DNA of 64,000 nucleotides from Sulfolobales archaeon (GTDB lineage: Archaea; Thermoproteota; Thermoprotei_A; Sulfolobales; AG1): NCBI GenBank assembly GCA_049976205.1, contig JBMFIR010000004.1, positions 1,213-65,212 of the forward strand, in the 5' to 3' direction. The number at the start of each line of letters is the position of its first letter. Position 1 is the first letter of the stretch. Shown here one piece after another: positions 24,158 through 30,162 of this stretch. Below the pieces are notes generated by a model, which worked only from the letters and a program-made list of their open reading frames with translations, searched no databases and had not been told where the DNA came from. The position numbers and the translations under genes were made by a program.

Positions 24158-25191
24158 TCTTCGATCCTCGTCCAAAGACTAGGAGAGAAGATCTATTTGG
24201 GAGGGAGAGAGAACTTGAATTACTACATAGAAACATTGATTCGCCGATTATAGTTATTACTGGGATCAGAAGAATTGGGAAAACATCTGTTCTAAACGTA
24301 TTTCTAAATGAAGTCTCGATCCCTGGTGTGATTATTGATTTAAGAAGTTTAAAGACTAATTATGGTTTTAAAGATCTCTATGATCTTTTGGCTAAGAGTT
24401 TCTCTAGTAAACTTGATAAATTCATTGATCTGTTGAAAAATATATCGTCTATTAAGATCGTTGGGGCTGAGGTGGAGTTTAAGTGGAGAGGTAGAGGCGC
24501 TATTAATTTATCGACCTTGTTTGATTACTTGAATAAGAAAAGAGTTATAATAGCTTTTGATGAAGCCCAGAGACTGCGAGGACCTAGATCTCAGGAGATT
24601 CTTAGTGCTATAGCTCATGCATATGATTATGATAAAAACATAACATTTATATTCACAGGCTCTGAAGTAGGACTACTTTACTCATTTCTAGAGATCGATA
24701 ATCCATCGTCTCCTATATATGGAAGATATATATACACACTATCACTAGAGAGATTTCCAAGAGATGTATCAATAGAATTCCTTAAACAAGGATTTAGTGA
24801 AGTAAATATGAACGTATCAATGGAAGTGATCGAAGCCGCAGTAGATATATTTAATGGTGTTCCTGGCTGGTTAACATTTTTCGGAAACGAATATATTAGA
24901 GGAACAAGAGATCTCAACAAGATCAAGAGATTAGCTGTGGAGTTAGCGCTAGAGGAATTAAGAAACTTGGTTAAGGAGAGAGGAGAGAGATACGCAATAG
25001 CTCTAAAAGGATTAGCAGAAGGAGCAAATAGCTGGGGGAGACTTAAGAGATATATCGAAGAAAAAGAGGGGAGAACAATCTCAACAAGTATTTTACACAA
25101 TATAGTGAAGTCTCTAGAGGATCTAAGTATAGTAAAAGACTATGAGTTTCTAGACCCAATATATAAGGAGGCAGCGAAAGAACTCAGATAA
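24157..25191 (+). CDS. archaeal ATPase (Arch_ATPase/AAA+ family, PF01637-like); N-terminus lacks a canonical start codon
   Basis: Homology extends in frame upstream of the tracked ORF: LFDPRPKTRREDLFGRERELELL...VITGIRRIGKTSVLN (Walker A), then AFDEAQ (Walker B). Between the stop at 24136-38 and GTG 24328 there is no ATG, GTG or TTG. ATA lies at 24154-56. Confidence 0.65.
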   Translation, partial: LFDPRPKTRREDLFGRERELELLHRNIDSPIIVITGIRRIGKTSVLNVFLNEVSIPGVIIDLRSLKTNYGFKDLYDLLAKSFSSKLDKFIDLLKNISSIKIVGAEVEFKWRGRGAINLSTLFDYLNKKRVIIAFDEAQRLRGPRSQEILSAIAHAYDYDKNITFIFTGSEVGLLYSFLEIDNPSSPIYGRYIYTLSLERFPRDVSIEFLKQGFSEVNMNVSMEVIEAAVDIFNGVPGWLTFFGNEYIRGTRDLNKIKRLAVELALEELRNLVKERGERYAIALKGLAEGANSWGRLKRYIEEKEGRTISTSILHNIVKSLEDLSIVKDYEFLDPIYKEAAKELR

Positions 25192-26181: not shown

Positions 26182-26301
26182 AAATATTAAGGTTCTACAA
26201 CTTTAATTTGATTCTTTTCTCGACTTATTTGATTTTTAAATATAGTGAACGTTCAATAAGGCTTAATAAATATAATCCCTCCATATATCGATGGGGGCCT
26301 A

Positions 26302-27309
26302 ATGAAGTTAGTAGACGCGTACTTTTACCTTGAGAGATTAAGAGATCTCCTATACTCATTATTAGAGTTGAGAGATAAAGCTAGAGATTCCGGGTCTGAG
26401 AAAGTGCCTATTCAGGAGGCGACATCTCTTGTGAAATACGGATTTATATCGATGTTTAAAGGTGGTGTCATAATGGATGTCACAAACGAGAAGCAAGCAG
26501 AGATCGCTGAGAGAGCTGGTGCAGTTGGTGTTATGGTTTTAGATAAATTACCATATGATGTAAGAGCCTCAGGAGGTGTTGCTAGAACAGCTGATCTGAA
26601 GATTATTGAGAGTGTTATGAATACTATAACAATCCCTGTATCCGCAAAATGTAGAATAGGTCACGAGGAGGAGGCTAGATTATTAGAAGAGATAGGAGTT
26701 GATTTAATTGATGAAAGCGAGGTTTTGACACCTGTTGATGAGAAAGCTCATATAAATAAGTGGTTATTCAAGACACCATTTGTTAACGGCGCGAGAAATC
26801 TGCCTGAAGCCTTGAGAAGAATATATGAGGGAGCATCAATGATTAGAACTAAGGGAGAACCTGGAACAGGTAATGTTGCTGAAGCTGTTAAACACATGAA
26901 ATTAGTTAATCGAGATATCGCTATGCTAAGAGGATATTATATAAGCGGTGATTATGAGGCTATATGGGTTTATTCTAAAGAGAATAAAGTACCTTATGAA
27001 TTAGCTTTATTAACAGCTAGATTAGGGAGATTACCAATAGTTAATTTTGCTGCTGGTGGAATAGCTACTCCAGCTGATGCTGCATTAATGATGTGGTTAG
27101 GAGCTGACGGGGTTTTTGTTGGTTCAGGAATATTTAAGAGTAGCGATCCTGAGTCTAGGGCGCGAGCCATAGTCTTAGCAACAGCATTTTATGATGATCC
27201 AGAGACTGTTGTTGAGGCTCAGAAAATGGTTTCTGAGAGACAAGCCATGTTGGGAATAGATGTTAGAACACTAAAACCAGAGCAATTAATGCAGATACGA
27301 GGTGAGTAA
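26302..27309 (+). CDS. pdxS: pyridoxal 5'-phosphate synthase lyase subunit PdxS
   Basis: [64 protein letters not shown], and [11 protein letters not shown]. Confidence 0.92.
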
Positions 27310-27313
27310 TTAA

Positions 27314-27910
27314 ATGGTTAAAGTAGGAGTATTAGCTGTTCAAGGAGATTTTCTAGAGCACTTAGAAATTCTCAGAGAAGCGGGGGTAGAGTCCGTATAT
27401 GTTAAGAAAGTCGATGATTTATACAAAATAGATGCTTTAATAATTCCTGGAGGAGAATCAACAACTATCGGTGGCTTAATTAATTTTAGAAATTTAGCAG
27501 AACCAATAATTAGATTAGCTGATTCAGGCGTACCTATCATGGGAGTTTGTGCCGGCGCCATAACGTTAGCGAAAAAAGTAGTTGATAGAGTAGTAGGTGA
27601 AACAAATCAATTCACACTAGGTTTAATGAATATAAGTGTTATCAGAAATATCTTCGGTAGACAAAAGAATTCTTTTAGAACACGAGTATATATTGAGAAT
27701 ATAGGAGAAATAGACGCGGCATTCATCAGAGCTCCTGGGATAATAGATGCGTGGGAACCCGCTAAAATTATAGGCTACATAGATCATCCCACTACCGGCA
27801 GAGTAGGGGTAGCCGCAGCACAAAATAATCTCATAGCCATAACCTTTCATCCAGAAATCACAAGCGATACCAAGATATATAAGTTCCTTCTAGAGATAAT
27901 TAAGAAATAG
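27314..27910 (+). CDS. pdxT: pyridoxal 5'-phosphate synthase glutaminase subunit PdxT
   Basis: GVLAVQGDFLEH, IIPGGESTT, MGVCAG (catalytic Cys), and FHPE. Confidence 0.9.
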   Translation: MVKVGVLAVQGDFLEHLEILREAGVESVYVKKVDDLYKIDALIIPGGESTTIGGLINFRNLAEPIIRLADSGVPIMGVCAGAITLAKKVVDRVVGETNQFTLGLMNISVIRNIFGRQKNSFRTRVYIENIGEIDAAFIRAPGIIDAWEPAKIIGYIDHPTTGRVGVAAAQNNLIAITFHPEITSDTKIYKFLLEIIKK

Positions 27911-27930: not shown

Positions 27931-29085
27931 GTGACAAGCCGAGTTGATATGAATTCAACACAGTATAAATTTAGATGTGTGCGTTGCGGCAGAGAAATAG
28001 ATTCATCAAATATAATTTTTAGATGCCCATTCTGCAAAGGTCTTCTCGTAATAGAGTACGAAAAACCTGTGTTTATGATTGATAAAGATAAGCCAGGTAT
28101 ATGGAGATATAGATCTCTTCTACCGAATTTCAAAGAGATCATATCTCGTGGAGAAGGATATACTCCTATAAAACGCGTTGGAGGAGTATATATTAAGAAT
28201 GAGAAAATTAACCCAACGGGTAGCTACGTAGATAGAGCATCAGCGTTAATTGCTTCTTATATAAGCAATTTTAGAGTAAGAGATGTTGTAGTAGAATATG
28301 AAGAAGTATTTTCTAAATCTCTAGCCTACTATCTATCTAATTTAACAAATATTAGATTCTGTATTGAAAATGAGGATCTCACTAATATACCAATAAATGA
28401 TCTAGTTTATTTAATGAAGATAGGAGAGATAGAGATATGCGGAGATAAACATATTGAAAACACATTAGTATTAAACTACGCTAATCCTCTAACTATAGAA
28501 GGTTTAAAAACAATTGTATTTGAGCTATACGAAAAGAAGATTAATGTAGATTACATAGTAGTTCCAGCGAAGACAGGTATATTAGCGTATTCTCTGGCTA
28601 AGGGTATGAACGATCTCGAGAAATCCGGCTTAAATACAGGTTATGAGATAATCGCCACACTACCAAAAAACAATCCTATTCCAGAGATCCTCAGAGAAAC
28701 AAGAAAGATCAAAGTTATAGAAGTGCCTCATAGAGAAATTCTTGAATCATTAAAAGAATTGGTTAGCCATAGAATAAATACTCCTCCACTCTCTGCAACA
28801 GCTTACTATGTGGCAAAGAATATGAGTAGAGCCATCGCCGTAATAACGGCAGGCTATAAACCTACTGCCAAAATATATCGAGATAAAGGTCTCAAAAAAA
28901 TTATTCTCGAGACAATCAAGAGGAGGGGTCCTATGACCGCTTACGAAATATGGAAAGAAAATCAGAAATATTCTCTCCGCGGAATCTACAAGTCTATTCA
29001 TAGTCTAATTGAGCAAGGGTATATATGCTTCGAGACACAGACTAAAAGAGGCAGAAAAGTTCGTGTATATGATATATGCTCATAA
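27931..29085 (+). CDS. threonine-synthase-like (fold-type II PLP enzyme fold) protein lacking the PLP lysine, fused to a C-terminal winged-helix domain
   Basis: Zn ribbon CVRCG...CPFCKG, GIWRYRSLLP, GEGYTP, and NPLTIEGLKT match ThrC. NPTGSYVDRAS carries Val where the Schiff-base Lys belongs. The C-terminal RRGPMTAYEIWKENQKYSLRGIYKSIHSLIEQGYICFETQTKRGRKVRVYDI is wHTH-like. Confidence 0.7.
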   Translation: MTSRVDMNSTQYKFRCVRCGREIDSSNIIFRCPFCKGLLVIEYEKPVFMIDKDKPGIWRYRSLLPNFKEIISRGEGYTPIKRVGGVYIKNEKINPTGSYVDRASALIASYISNFRVRDVVVEYEEVFSKSLAYYLSNLTNIRFCIENEDLTNIPINDLVYLMKIGEIEICGDKHIENTLVLNYANPLTIEGLKTIVFELYEKKINVDYIVVPAKTGILAYSLAKGMNDLEKSGLNTGYEIIATLPKNNPIPEILRETRKIKVIEVPHREILESLKELVSHRINTPPLSATAYYVAKNMSRAIAVITAGYKPTAKIYRDKGLKKIILETIKRRGPMTAYEIWKENQKYSLRGIYKSIHSLIEQGYICFETQTKRGRKVRVYDICS

Positions 29086-29172
29086 TCTTTTTCAAGGCGT
29101 TTATCGCATAATTAAGTGATAGATAAACAAATACGCATACCGACTCCCAGATGAACTAATCAGTAATTAGGG

Positions 29173-30162
29173 CTATATATCGAGTTTTAAGAAATCAAGT
29201 CTTTTACTATATTCTAAGTCTCTTATCTCTTCTCTTGACCCAGGTTTTCTGAAGACAAATAGTTTCTCGTGGTATATGAGTAGAAAATCTCTTTTTCTTA
29301 ATCTGCTCCACACTTCTCTCGTGGTCTTCATCTTGTGCTGTATCTTAATAACCTCCTCCTTCAACACAAAGCCCGCATCTAGAAAGACTTGCATTACATA
29401 ATGTGATATTGGCACATAGTGTTTTCTAATTCTCGTATCCCCAATTAATATTGCACAATATTTCCCAGGTCTCAGCACTCTATATATCTCTCTAGCTACA
29501 TCTCTCATCCATCTCAGATACTCCTCGAGGCTCCTAGTCTTAGAGAGATCTCCATCAACTCTATCCCCATCACCGTACTTGATTATATTGAAGTAAGGTG
29601 GGTGAGTAGCCACGAGATCAATGCTCTCGTCCCCGATCAAGTCTAGTTTCCTCGCATCCCCTAGATAGACCTTGTACCACACCTTCTTAGTATCCTCTAC
29701 ATCAACTCCCTCAATTTTTGCATCAGTGCTCTCATAGAGGTTTTTCAAGGCCTCCTCGAGGTAGTAGAGTCTGTGGAGTGTTAGTATCACAGCGTTATAG
29801 TTTATGTCTACACCAATAGAGTTTCTCCCCAGGAGCTTAGCCTCTATCAATGTGGTCCCACTACCCATCATAGGATCCAGGACAATGTCACCGGGTTTAG
29901 TGTACATAAGTATAAGAGCCCTAGGTATCTGAGGAGCCCAATTCCCTCTGTAATCCCCTCTATGAGTAGCCCAAGAACCTCTCCTAGGGAAACTCCAGAC
30001 AGTAGTTGATACATCAGTCAACTCCTCGGGCTCAGGAGCTAGACGCTTAATCCTAACCGGCTGAAGACTAATGACTTGATCCTCTAGCACAATTTCTTTA
30101 TGCTTCGCCACATACTCAAGATACTCATTAAATGAGACTTCTCTCATTCTCAGTATTTTCAC
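29173..30162 (-). CDS. DNA (N6-adenine or N4-cytosine) methyltransferase, motif order X-I...IV; orphan
   Basis: WSFP...HRGDYRGNWAPQIPRALI...GDIVLDPMMGSGTT is the AdoMet motif I. LVATHPPYFN is the (D/N/S)PPY-type motif IV. Confidence 0.7.
   Translation of the reverse strand: MKILRMREVSFNEYLEYVAKHKEIVLEDQVISLQPVRIKRLAPEPEELTDVSTTVWSFPRRGSWATHRGDYRGNWAPQIPRALILMYTKPGDIVLDPMMGSGTTLIEAKLLGRNSIGVDINYNAVILTLHRLYYLEEALKNLYESTDAKIEGVDVEDTKKVWYKVYLGDARKLDLIGDESIDLVATHPPYFNIIKYGDGDRVDGDLSKTRSLEEYLRWMRDVAREIYRVLRPGKYCAILIGDTRIRKHYVPISHYVMQVFLDAGFVLKEEVIKIQHKMKTTREVWSRLRKRDFLLIYHEKLFVFRKPGSREEIRDLEYSKRLDFLKLDI

What the first reader, a model, noticed from the sequence alone, without database searches (positions are those of the whole stretch)
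27931..29085. Threonine-synthase-fold pseudoenzyme fused to a winged helix, directly behind pdxS-pdxT: candidate archaeal vitamin-B6/amino-acid sensing regulator
Seen in sequence: the ORF starts 20 nt after the pdxT stop on the same strand (pdxS 26302-27309, pdxT 27314-27910). It keeps the ThrC-type zinc ribbon (C16, C19, C32, C35) and the GIWRYRSLLP, GEGYTP and NPLTIEGLKT blocks. The Schiff-base lysine of NPTGS[FY]K is Val (NPTGSYVDRAS; V100 = GTA 28228-28230). The S-x-G-N block reads EYEEVF, and the Gly-rich phosphate loop reads PAKTGIL. Residues ~318-381 (nt ~28882-29073) look like a wHTH. Established knowledge: bacterial pdxST is regulated by PdxR, a MocR-type fusion of an N-terminal wHTH to a fold-type I PLP domain. 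Inference: this looks like an independently built analogue, with a fold-type II non-catalytic domain and a C-terminal wHTH. It could sense PLP, a B6 vitamer or an amino-acid-related ligand and control pdxST or its own expression. I know of no characterised archaeal counterpart.
Basis: partly seen in the sequence, partly recalled or inferred. Interest (0 to 1): 0.8.

Follow-up and report, generated by a model that had tools for sequence, protein, structure and literature searches.

The report
Candidate archaeal vitamin B6 gene regulator
A gene behind the vitamin-B6 synthesis genes encodes a dead copy of threonine synthase fused to a DNA-binding domain, and it very probably acts as a so far undescribed archaeal switch for B6 synthesis and uptake genes by binding a strikingly conserved palindrome in front of them.

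Summary
ORF 27931-29085 encodes a Zn-ribbon, a threonine-synthase-fold domain and a C-terminal winged helix. The Schiff-base lysine is Val100, and it is never Lys in 95 homologues. The interpretation as a B6 regulator is strongly supported by new evidence. (1) In 41 of 80 genomic loci the gene lies directly beside pdxS-pdxT, in two different gene orders. (2) A near-invariant palindrome, tTATTGAACGTTCAATAA (window 26242-26259), abuts the BRE/TATA region of every testable pdxS promoter (39/39). It follows pdxS when the gene order changes. It also precedes a PdxU-type ECF transporter, an MFS transporter, or the regulator gene itself, whenever those are the neighbours. (3) A subclade whose recognition helix reads SLQG instead of (S/T)LRG has neither the palindrome nor pdxST nearby. 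(4) A larger sister family (NCBIfam PRK05638, named "threonine synthase"; Thermococcus, Bathyarchaeia, Odinarchaeota) has the same architecture and lacks the lysine in 163 of 165 members. The ligand (PLP or a B6 vitamer is the guess), the direction of control and DNA binding itself are untested. I found no published description. It is a new variant of a known kind: enzyme-derived sensor plus wHTH vitamin regulators such as PdxR/MocR, RbkR and ThiR.

The parts
26242..26259 (.). Predicted operator: ATAGTGAACGTTCAATAA. This is the window's copy of the 18-bp palindrome tTATTGAACGTTCAATAA. The 10-bp core TGAACGTTCA is at 26246-26255.
   Evidence: It is the only match in the 64-kb window. The core is found at the same place, about 56 nt before the pdxS start, in 39 of 39 testable pdxS promoters of related loci. 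The logo core carries about 2 bits per position.
26256..26274 (+). Inferred BRE/TATA region of the pdxS promoter (AATAA GGC TTAATAAATATA). The right arm of the palindrome overlaps the inferred BRE.
   Evidence: Conserved AATAA, a 3-4 nt spacer, then TTAA/TTAT at +17..+22 from the core start in 44 aligned sites. The assignment as BRE/TATA is an inference from archaeal promoter architecture; it was not measured.
26302..27309 (+). pdxS (PLP synthase lyase subunit), 335 aa, with an N-terminal extension of about 36 aa.
   Evidence: NF003215 456 bits against a cut-off of 395; PF01680 1.4e-91.
27314..27910 (+). pdxT (PLP synthase glutaminase subunit), 198 aa.
   Evidence: TIGR03800 175 bits against a cut-off of 105.6; PF01174 1.5e-47.
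27931..29085 (+). Regulator gene: Zn-ribbon, Lys-less ThrC-fold sensor domain and C-terminal wHTH. It is 384 aa from GTG 27931, but the likely true start is ATG 27949 (378 aa).
27970..28041 (+). N-terminal CxxC...CxxC zinc ribbon (residues 14-37; C16, C19, C32, C35).
   Evidence: The four Cys are at least 90% conserved in the family. They are also present in the true ThrCs of this subclass, so the ribbon is inherited and not new.
28093..28860 (+). ThrC-like fold-type II (PALP) domain with a remodelled cofactor site (residues about 55-310).
   Evidence: PF00291 60.7 bits. Foldseek to ThrC structures at E 1e-14. Motif table: S-T-G-N becomes Y-x-E-D-F-T; P-V-G-D-G becomes P-A-x-T-G-L; the N1 Thr is kept.
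28228..28230 (+). GTA codon for Val100, at the position of the PLP Schiff-base lysine.
28882..29082 (+). C-terminal winged helix-turn-helix (residues 318-384). The predicted recognition helix is 349-361 (LRGIYKSIHSLIE; nt 28975-29013).
   Evidence: AF2 topology H-H-H-beta-beta, with pLDDT 85-97 over this region. Sub-threshold hits to PadR, TrmB, Fur and HTH_27 in 29 members. The homologous domain of the sister family is scored as PF03551 PadR.
29086..29093 (+). T-run (TCTTTTTC) directly after the stop codon. It is a possible archaeal oligo-T terminator of the pdxS-pdxT-regulator transcript.
   Evidence: Read from the sequence only; not tested.

Best explanation
The gene encodes a transcription factor of a vitamin-B6 regulon. 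A threonine-synthase-derived domain has lost the catalytic lysine and most cofactor and substrate contacts, and it serves as the sensor. The C-terminal wHTH, presumably in a homodimer, binds the 18-bp palindrome tTATTGAACGTTCAATAA. That palindrome abuts the BRE/TATA region of the pdxS promoter, with its centre at about -42 from the inferred transcription start. In this window the regulator is the third gene of the pdxS-pdxT-regulator operon, so it also controls its own level. In other lineages the same site precedes a PdxU-type ECF transporter, an MFS transporter or the regulator gene itself. The most likely effector is PLP or another B6 vitamer bound non-covalently, which would give end-product feedback. 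What is shown: the architecture, the loss of the lysine, the synteny, and the conservation of the operator and its co-location with the gene. What is inferred: that this protein is the one that binds the palindrome, that the ligand is a B6 vitamer, and the direction of control. On direction I lean slightly (about 55:45) towards activation by the ligand-free protein with release by the product, as proposed for archaeal RbkR, whose sites sit at the same place. The alternative is ligand-dependent repression by occlusion of the BRE.
For: - Architecture and pseudoenzyme status.
- Synteny: pdxS-pdxT lies directly beside the gene in 41 of 80 genome loci, in the orders S-T-R (34 loci) and R-S-T (7 loci). 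The taxa include Sulfolobales, Desulfurococcales, Ignisphaera, Pyrodictiaceae, Acidilobaceae and Methanomethylicales.
- Operator at pdxS: the core TGAACGTTCA is at the pdxS promoter in 39 of 39 testable loci (30 exact, 8 with one mismatch, 1 with two).
- Operator specificity: all 36 exact-core matches in 1.22 Mb of loci lie at predicted operator positions. There are none in the 36 loci without such neighbours.
- The site follows the target: in R-S-T loci it lies between the regulator's stop codon and pdxS, so it belongs to the target promoter.
- Other targets next to the regulator: the same site precedes an ECF S component (PF07155, 2.3e-20) with a fused ATPase in L020 and L029. It precedes an MFS transporter followed by the regulator in L041, L048 and L052, and the regulator alone in L044.
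- Link to B6: PF07155 is the family of the only known B6 ECF S components, PdxU and PdxU2/HmpT (PMC9997740).
- Helix and operator co-vary: a subclade with SLQG instead of (S/T)LRG in the recognition helix lacks both the palindrome and pdxST.
- Unbiased check: a metagenome scan with the palindrome gave pdxS as the only sizeable recurrent downstream family. High-GC pdxST contigs without an adjacent regulator still carry the site, and their GC matches that of the MFS-regulator loci, as expected for one regulon with several targets.
- Precedent for site position: RbkR sites 1-12 nt upstream of promoter elements were read as activator sites (PMC5397151).
Against: - No experiment links the protein to the DNA site. 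The palindrome could belong to another factor.
- Vulcanisaeta and three metagenomic pdxST loci carry the palindrome (Vulcanisaeta a symmetric variant, TTAAACGTTTAA) with no regulator within the flanks. Whether a copy exists elsewhere in those genomes could not be checked.
- About half of the family members are not next to pdxST or a palindrome. This includes cultured Caldisphaera lagunensis.
- The cofactor pocket is so remodelled (S-x-G-N lost, first Gly of the phosphate loop lost) that PLP binding is not a given.
- The wHTH matches known Pfam families only below their thresholds.
- The right arm of the palindrome overlaps the inferred BRE, so repression is as plausible as activation.
Confidence: 0.7

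Rival explanations
1. It is a DNA-binding regulator of pdxST, but the sensor reads something other than a B6 vitamer. Candidates are O-phosphohomoserine, threonine or another amino acid, or a PLP-amino-acid adduct. B6 supply would then follow the demand of amino-acid metabolism rather than end-product feedback.
For: The domain derives from an amino-acid enzyme and has lost most PLP contacts. Family-specific conserved residues (Y99, Y123, D126/F127, T128) suggest a rebuilt pocket. More distant members sit beside unrelated genes: a corrinoid protein, EamA, an acyl-CoA dehydrogenase.
Against: The Arg that binds the phosphate of O-phosphohomoserine in ThrC (NP-x-R-x-EGQKT, from established ThrC structures) is Thr here (NPLTIEG). 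The predicted targets are B6 synthesis plus transporters of the PdxU family, which is the classic content of an end-product regulon.
Confidence: 0.18
2. The palindrome is the site of a different, unidentified transcription factor. The ThrC-like protein would then be a co-regulated B6-related protein, such as a PLP carrier or buffer or a partner of PdxST, whose winged helix serves protein contacts rather than DNA.
For: The palindrome occurs at pdxS without an adjacent copy of the gene in Vulcanisaeta and in three metagenomic contigs. No binding data exist. The wHTH has only sub-threshold Pfam matches.
Against: The gene sits beside a palindrome-bearing promoter in four unrelated contexts (pdxST, ECF, MFS, alone), which is typical of a regulator clustering with its targets. 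The wHTH is the best conserved part of the protein: the TAYEIW and LRGxYKA blocks and basic wing residues. A change in the recognition helix coincides with loss of the site. The symmetric site fits a dimeric wHTH protein.
Confidence: 0.1
3. It is an active PLP enzyme, a threonine synthase or a related lyase as annotated in some databases, that uses unusual catalytic residues.
For: JGI and some NCBI records call homologues threonine synthase or PLP-dependent enzyme. The overall fold is ThrC.
Against: No Lys at the Schiff-base column in 95 of 95 members, and no alternative family-specific Lys. S-x-G-N and the first Gly of the phosphate loop are lost. All ThrC equivalog HMMs score far below their cut-offs. 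Separate ThrC-like genes lie in some of the same loci (L033, L047, L051).
Confidence: 0.03

Closest known systems
PdxR and other MocR/GabR-type regulators (Bacteria)
   Same: A PLP-enzyme-fold domain fused to a wHTH controls pdxST and B6 transporter genes, including PF07155 ECF S components. The regulator gene clusters with its targets (PMC5320631, PMC9997740).
   Different: In MocR the wHTH is N-terminal and of the GntR type. The sensor is a fold-type I aminotransferase domain that keeps its lysine and binds PLP covalently. Here the wHTH is C-terminal and PadR/TrmB-like, the sensor is fold-type II (ThrC) and Lys-less, and there is an N-terminal Zn ribbon. It is an independent invention, found in Archaea.
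NCBIfam NF004170 / PRK05638, named 'threonine synthase' (archaeal PALP+PadR proteins of about 440-470 aa)
   Same: The same three-part architecture, alignable over the full length. The lysine is replaced in 163 of 165 wHTH-bearing members (R117, I17, L13 and others). One member (P0157, locus L081) sits beside an ECF transporter whose S component is 38% identical to the one beside the present family.
   Different: The present protein scores 108 bits against the cut-off of 421. It is about 60-80 aa shorter and has lost the G-N of S-x-G-N and the first Gly of the phosphate loop, which the sister family keeps. It uses a different recognition helix and a different operator: there is no TTGAACGTTCAA in L081. 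The sister family is not linked to pdxST in the loci examined.
RbkR (archaeal riboflavin kinase fused to wHTH) and ThiR (archaeal ThiN-like sensor fused to wHTH)
   Same: These are archaeal vitamin regulons run by an enzyme-type sensor domain fused to a wHTH. They have palindromic sites placed just upstream of promoter elements of biosynthesis and transporter genes, and product-driven control. RbkR: PMC5397151. ThiR: my own knowledge of Rodionov et al. 2017, J Bacteriol; the paper is not held in the library.
   Different: The sensor folds are unrelated and the wHTH is N-terminal. RbkR is still an active enzyme. The vitamins differ.
Threonine synthase (ThrC, EC 4.2.3.1), Zn-ribbon subclass
   Same: The fold, the N-terminal Zn ribbon and several structural motifs: GIWRY, GEG-TP, NPTGS-, EG-KT.
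   Different: No catalytic Lys. No S-x-G-N. No substrate-phosphate Arg. An altered phosphate loop. An extra wHTH.

Membership tests
Threonine synthase (ThrC) | PLP Schiff-base lysine in the NPTGS[FY]K motif | tested here: not met
   V100 in the window. A51/S29/V6 and K0 in 95 homologues. K in 13 of 13 true ThrCs.
Threonine synthase (ThrC) | S-x-G-N loop and Gly-rich PLP-phosphate loop | tested here: not met
   S-T-G-N becomes Y-x-E-D (EYEEVF in the window). P-V-G-D-G becomes P-A-x-T-G, with only the second Gly kept.
Threonine synthase (ThrC) | Score above the curated cut-off of a ThrC equivalog model | tested here: not met
   NF004170 108 against 421; NF006205 71.5 against 358; TIGR00260 33 against 167.
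PALP superfamily (fold-type II PLP enzymes, PF00291) | Pfam gathering score and fold | tested here: met
   60.7 bits against 35. Foldseek top hits are ThrC, TdcB, serine racemase and CysK, with probability 1.00.
MocR/PdxR regulators | N-terminal GntR-type wHTH plus a fold-type I aminotransferase-like domain with a PLP-binding Lys | tested here: not met
   No GntR or Aminotran_1_2 hit. The domain order is reversed, the fold is type II and there is no Lys.
PRK05638-type Lys-less ThrC-wHTH proteins (NF004170) | Zn ribbon + PALP + C-terminal wHTH architecture with the lysine replaced | tested here: met
   Same architecture. Full-length alignment to P0215 and P0258.
PRK05638-type Lys-less ThrC-wHTH proteins (NF004170) | HMM score above the curated cut-off | tested here: not met
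   108 bits against 421. It is a distinct, sharply separated sister family: E about 1e-50 or better within the family, against 1e-26 or worse to the sister family.
Winged helix-turn-helix DNA-binding domains (PadR/TrmB/MarR-like) | H1-H2-H3 followed by a beta-hairpin wing | tested here: met
   The AF2 model has H319-332, H337-343, H349-361, E365-372 and E375-382, with block-mean pLDDT 85-97 over this region.
Winged helix-turn-helix DNA-binding domains (PadR/TrmB/MarR-like) | Significant match to a curated wHTH family model | tested here: inconclusive
   PadR matches in 15 of 29 members, TrmB in 13 of 29 and HTH_27 in 6 of 29, all below gathering scores. The best PDB profile hit is Fur at E 0.008.
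Winged helix-turn-helix DNA-binding domains (PadR/TrmB/MarR-like) | Sequence-specific DNA binding | not testable with these tools
   Only indirect evidence: a conserved palindrome co-located with the gene.
Vitamin end-product regulators (functional class: PdxR, RbkR, ThiR, BirA, NiaR) | Binds the pathway's vitamer, which changes DNA binding | not testable with these tools
   The ligand is inferred only from the content of the regulon: pdxST, a PF07155 ECF transporter and an MFS transporter.

The most novel reading that the evidence does not exclude
This protein is the founding, sequence-defined example of the first archaeal vitamin-B6 regulator. It also stands for a large unrecognised class of archaeal transcription factors in which a threonine-synthase fold, stripped of its Schiff-base lysine, has become a reversible small-molecule sensor fused to a wHTH. 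On that reading, hundreds or more of the PALP+wHTH genes now named 'threonine synthase' or 'PLP-dependent enzyme' in Thermoproteota, Thermococcales, Bathyarchaeia, Methanomethylicia and Asgard archaea are regulators, not enzymes. The palindrome-marked ECF, MFS and ABC genes would then point to the long-sought B6 vitamer transporters of archaea.
Probability: 0.5. Interest if true: 0.85.

Novelty: new variant of a known kind. Interest (0 to 1): 0.78.

Why it matters
- No regulator of vitamin B6 metabolism is known in Archaea, and B6 transporters are largely unknown in prokaryotes (PMC9997740).
- This finding supplies three things at once: a concrete protein family, an exact 18-bp operator, and a predicted regulon (pdxST, a PdxU-type ECF system, an MFS transporter and perhaps an ABC permease). 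All can be tested with simple binding assays.
- It shows a second, independent route by which a PLP-enzyme fold became a transcription-factor sensor: fold-type II without the lysine, against fold-type I with the lysine in MocR.
- It flags a curated NCBI "equivalog" model (NF004170, "threonine synthase") whose wHTH-bearing members almost all lack the catalytic lysine. This would affect pathway reconstruction for threonine in many archaeal genomes.
- The operator is nearly invariant across the sampled orders and classes, which makes it a useful marker for regulon prediction in uncultured archaea.

Tried and rejected
- **Negative control for the operator.** I looked for a pdxS promoter in a genome without an adjacent regulator. 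Vulcanisaeta (L083) has a symmetric variant, TTAAACGTTTAA, at the same place, so it is not a clean negative. Whether a regulator copy lies elsewhere in that genome could not be checked.
- **Separate fold of the wHTH.** I tried to fold it with its own alignment. I relied on the whole-protein model instead.
- **Operator of the SLQG subclade.** I looked for its own palindrome around the gene. The gene is tightly packed between DUF1805 and a corrinoid-protein gene with no intergenic space, so nothing could be said.
- **Autoregulatory site.** I searched the 36 loci without pdxST or a transporter for a site at the regulator's own promoter. None was found with up to 2 mismatches. General self-regulation through an own site is therefore rejected, except where the gene is inside a target operon or, as in L044, directly behind a site.
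- **Caldisphaera lagunensis** (cultured, complete genome). The gene is not next to pdxST and no site lies within 5 kb on either side.
- **Sister-family loci** (L081, L082, L087, L088). No TTGAACGTTCAA and no pdxST linkage. L081 has a different palindrome, TTAGTTATAACTAA, upstream of the gene.
- **Metagenome scan with the 17-mer.** Most of the 120 stretches are chance hits in unrelated organisms, and 43 of 129 sites fall inside long ORFs. Only the pdxS group, and a small ABC-permease group, recur.
- **Substrate of the transporters.** NCBIfam gave no substrate-level name for the ECF S component or the MFS transporter.
- **Literature.** Eight searches found no description of the family or the operator. 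The ThiR paper is not in the library.
- **Active-enzyme reading.** Considered and rejected; see the rival explanations.
Full report
**1. The observation**

The ORF at 27931-29085 (+, 384 aa from GTG) is real. It follows pdxS (26302-27309) and pdxT (27314-27910) on the same strand, with gaps of 4 nt and 20 nt. Both neighbours pass their curated NCBIfam cut-offs.

Pfam PALP is significant (60.7 bits against 35). Every threonine-synthase equivalog model is far below its cut-off, the best being NF004170 at 108 bits against 421. HMMER alignment to the solved Aquifex ThrC (2zsj) places V100 opposite the Schiff-base lysine.

An AlphaFold2 model built on 41 homologues is confident (pLDDT 90.6, pTM 0.84). 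Its best structural matches are threonine synthases at E about 1e-14, followed by other fold-type II enzymes. After a disordered linker (311-317) the model ends in three helices and a beta-hairpin, which is the winged-helix topology. Twenty-nine C-terminal domains give consistent but sub-threshold hits to PadR, TrmB, HTH_27 and Fur.

The database orthologues (99% identical) are called at 378 aa, so ATG 27949 is the more likely start.

**2. The family**

About 108 proteins form a sharply bounded family, with E from 1e-246 to 2e-50 and then a drop to 1e-11 for true ThrCs. They come from Sulfolobales/Desulfurococcales, Ignisphaera, Thermosphaera, Thermofilum, Caldisphaera, Acidilobaceae, Pyrodictiaceae, Methanomethylicales and some high-GC MAGs labelled Nitrososphaeria.

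The state of the ThrC active-site motifs is as follows.

| Position | True ThrC | This family (95 full-length members) |
|---|---|---|
| Schiff-base Lys | K in 13/13 | A51, S29, V6; never K |
| S-T-G-N loop | conserved | Y-x-E-D-F-T |
| Phosphate loop P-V-G-D-G | conserved | P-A-x-T-G-L (second Gly 95/95) |
| Arg of NP-x-R-x-EGQKT | see note | Thr |
| Thr aligned with the pyridine-N1 ligand | present | kept |

Note on the Arg: established ThrC structures show that it binds the phosphate of O-phosphohomoserine. Aquifex ThrC has it (NPYRIEGQKT), but most of the Zn-ribbon ThrCs compared here have Thr at that position as well.

The invariant lysines K89, K193 and K224 are also conserved in true ThrCs. 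No new lysine has therefore appeared that could take over catalysis. The protein is a conserved pseudoenzyme, not a decayed gene.

**3. Synteny**

A scan of one genome per GTDB species gave 80 loci. In 41 of them pdxS-pdxT lies directly beside the gene on the same strand. The order is pdxS-pdxT-R in 34 loci and R-pdxS-pdxT in 7. Linkage that survives a rearrangement and spans class-level distances argues for a functional tie.

**4. An operator**

I aligned the regions upstream of the first gene of these clusters. This exposed a palindrome, tTATTGAACGTTCAATAA, about 56 nt before the pdxS start codon.

- The 10-bp core TGAACGTTCA is present in 39 of 39 testable pdxS promoters: 30 exact, 8 with one mismatch, 1 with two.
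- All 36 exact-core matches in 1.22 Mb of fetched loci lie at predicted operator positions.
- The 36 loci that lack such neighbours contain none.
- The window has a single copy, at 26246-26255.
- In the logo from 44 distinct sites the core carries about 2 bits per position. It is followed by AATAA, a 3-4 nt spacer and a TTAA/TTAT element.

I read AATAA plus the spacer and TTAA/TTAT as BRE plus TATA box. This places the palindrome centre at about -42 from the inferred transcription start, with its right arm overlapping the BRE. That reading is an inference from archaeal promoter architecture.

In R-S-T loci the site lies between the regulator's stop codon and pdxS, so it belongs to the target promoter and not to the regulator gene.

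**5. Other targets**

The same site occurs next to the regulator in loci without pdxS.

- In L020 and L029 it precedes an ECF S component (PF07155, 2.3e-20), a fused double ATPase and a T-like membrane protein.
- In L041, L048 and L052 it precedes an MFS transporter that is followed by the regulator.
- In L044 it precedes the regulator alone.

PF07155 is the family of PdxU and PdxU2/HmpT, the only ECF S components known for B6 vitamers (PMC9997740).

An unbiased metagenome scan with the palindrome returned 120 stretches, most of them chance hits. pdxS is the only sizeable recurrent downstream family: 12 loci by clustering and 15 by tblastn. Three high-GC pdxST contigs carry the site without an adjacent regulator, and their GC matches that of the MFS-regulator loci. 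Three further high-GC contigs have the site upstream of a fused ABC permease.

**6. The link between the protein and the site**

The recognition helix reads (S/T)LRG(I/V)YKA in all members that sit beside the palindrome. A subclade with SLQGVYKAL, found next to DUF1805, a corrinoid protein, EamA and ABC genes, has neither the palindrome nor pdxST.

Vulcanisaeta carries a symmetric variant, TTAAACGTTTAA, at the same promoter position with no adjacent regulator. This is compatible either with a distant copy of the gene or with another factor, and it is the main open point. Thermosphaera aggregans, a cultured species with a complete genome, has pdxS-pdxT-R plus the site.

**7. The sister family**

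An exhaustive HMMER search found a second tier of proteins of 420-500 aa with the same Zn-ribbon, PALP and wHTH architecture. They match NCBIfam NF004170 (PRK05638, "threonine synthase"), and P0157 passes its cut-off. They occur in Thermococcus, Pyrococcus, Thermosphaera, Bathyarchaeia, Odinarchaeota and others.

Among 165 wHTH-bearing members the lysine column is R117, I17, L13, V5, F4, T3, M3 and Y1, and K in only two. All 13 relatives without a wHTH keep K. This family keeps the G-N of S-x-G-N and the G-x-G phosphate loop. That fits a domain which still holds PLP but cannot form the aldimine.

One member (L081) sits beside an ECF transporter whose S component is 38% identical to the one in L029. 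The other loci examined show no B6 link.

**8. Mechanism**

The best-supported reading is a B6-regulon transcription factor. The dead ThrC domain senses a small molecule, most likely PLP or another vitamer bound non-covalently. The wHTH dimer binds the palindrome at the pdxS promoter. In this window the regulator is co-transcribed with pdxST and so feeds back on itself.

The direction of control is unresolved. Archaeal RbkR sites at the same position, 1-12 nt upstream of promoter elements, were interpreted as activator sites with product-induced release (PMC5397151). The overlap with the inferred BRE would equally allow repression.

**9. Comparison and novelty**

Functionally the protein parallels bacterial PdxR/MocR, but it is built from different parts in the opposite order and without the lysine. 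In design it parallels archaeal RbkR and ThiR. Eight literature searches found no description of the family, the operator or any archaeal B6 regulator. I rate it a new variant of a known kind, with high interest because it can be tested directly.

Noticed in passing
window 26302-26409 (first ~36 codons of pdxS): PdxS carries an N-terminal extension of about 36 aa ([31 protein letters not shown]...) that lies outside the NF003215/PF01680 models. tblastn alignments start at residue 1 in most Thermoproteota loci and in the high-GC contigs L114 and L201, but the Methanomethylicales loci align only from residue 37. Its function is unknown.
   Followed up: partly
NCBIfam NF004170 (PRK05638); proteins P0152-P0262 and P0383-P0495: A curated equivalog model named 'threonine synthase' covers proteins that end in a PadR-like wHTH. 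They lack the catalytic lysine in 163 of 165 cases (mostly Arg), so this is a probable systematic mis-annotation in Thermococcales, Bathyarchaeia, Asgard archaea and others. Two exceptions (P0181, P0418) keep Lys together with the wHTH.
   Followed up: partly
L083 4944-4955 (Vulcanisaeta sp. JCM 14467, upstream of pdxS): A symmetric operator variant, TTAAACGTTTAA (G>A and C>T at mirror positions), sits at the same promoter position, with no regulator gene next to pdxST. This suggests a co-evolved regulator elsewhere in that genome, or another factor.
   Followed up: partly
L128, L171 (619-636), L182: High-GC contigs have the palindrome TTGTTGAACGTTCAACA upstream of a fused double ABC permease (PF00528). 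The distance to the TATA-like element is longer, about 19 nt. This is a possible further regulon member or B6 importer.
   Followed up: partly
L057-L076 (for example L059 9700-12768): A subclade of the family has SLQG in the recognition helix. It is embedded in a conserved cluster: acyl-CoA dehydrogenase, DUF1805, regulator, MtbC-like corrinoid protein (PF02310), EamA transporter, ABC permease and ATPase. It probably has a different ligand and regulon.
   Followed up: partly
L081 5944-5957: A perfect 14-bp palindrome, TTAGTTATAACTAA, lies upstream of the sister-family gene P0157. That gene is followed by an ECF S component, a double ATPase and a T-like protein. The palindrome is a candidate operator of that family.
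   Followed up: no
L210 6151-6816 (Caldisphaera lagunensis): In this cultured species the regulator is not beside pdxST. It lies next to a HAD-family hydrolase and between two aminotransferase genes. HAD enzymes include PLP phosphatases, so a B6 link is conceivable but untested.
   Followed up: no
window 24328-25191 (+): An archaeal ATPase_2 (PF01637) ORF with a C-terminal MCM-like wHTH matches the Pfam profile only from position 54 and starts with GTG. It is possibly N-terminally truncated or mis-started. The L001 orthologue region is only 79% identical, against 96-97% for the neighbouring genes.
   Followed up: no
window 29173-30162 (-): A stand-alone N6/N4 DNA methyltransferase (PF01555) converges on the regulator gene, with no obvious restriction partner in the ORFs listed up to 32 kb. 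A 65%-identical copy occurs in L039.
   Followed up: no
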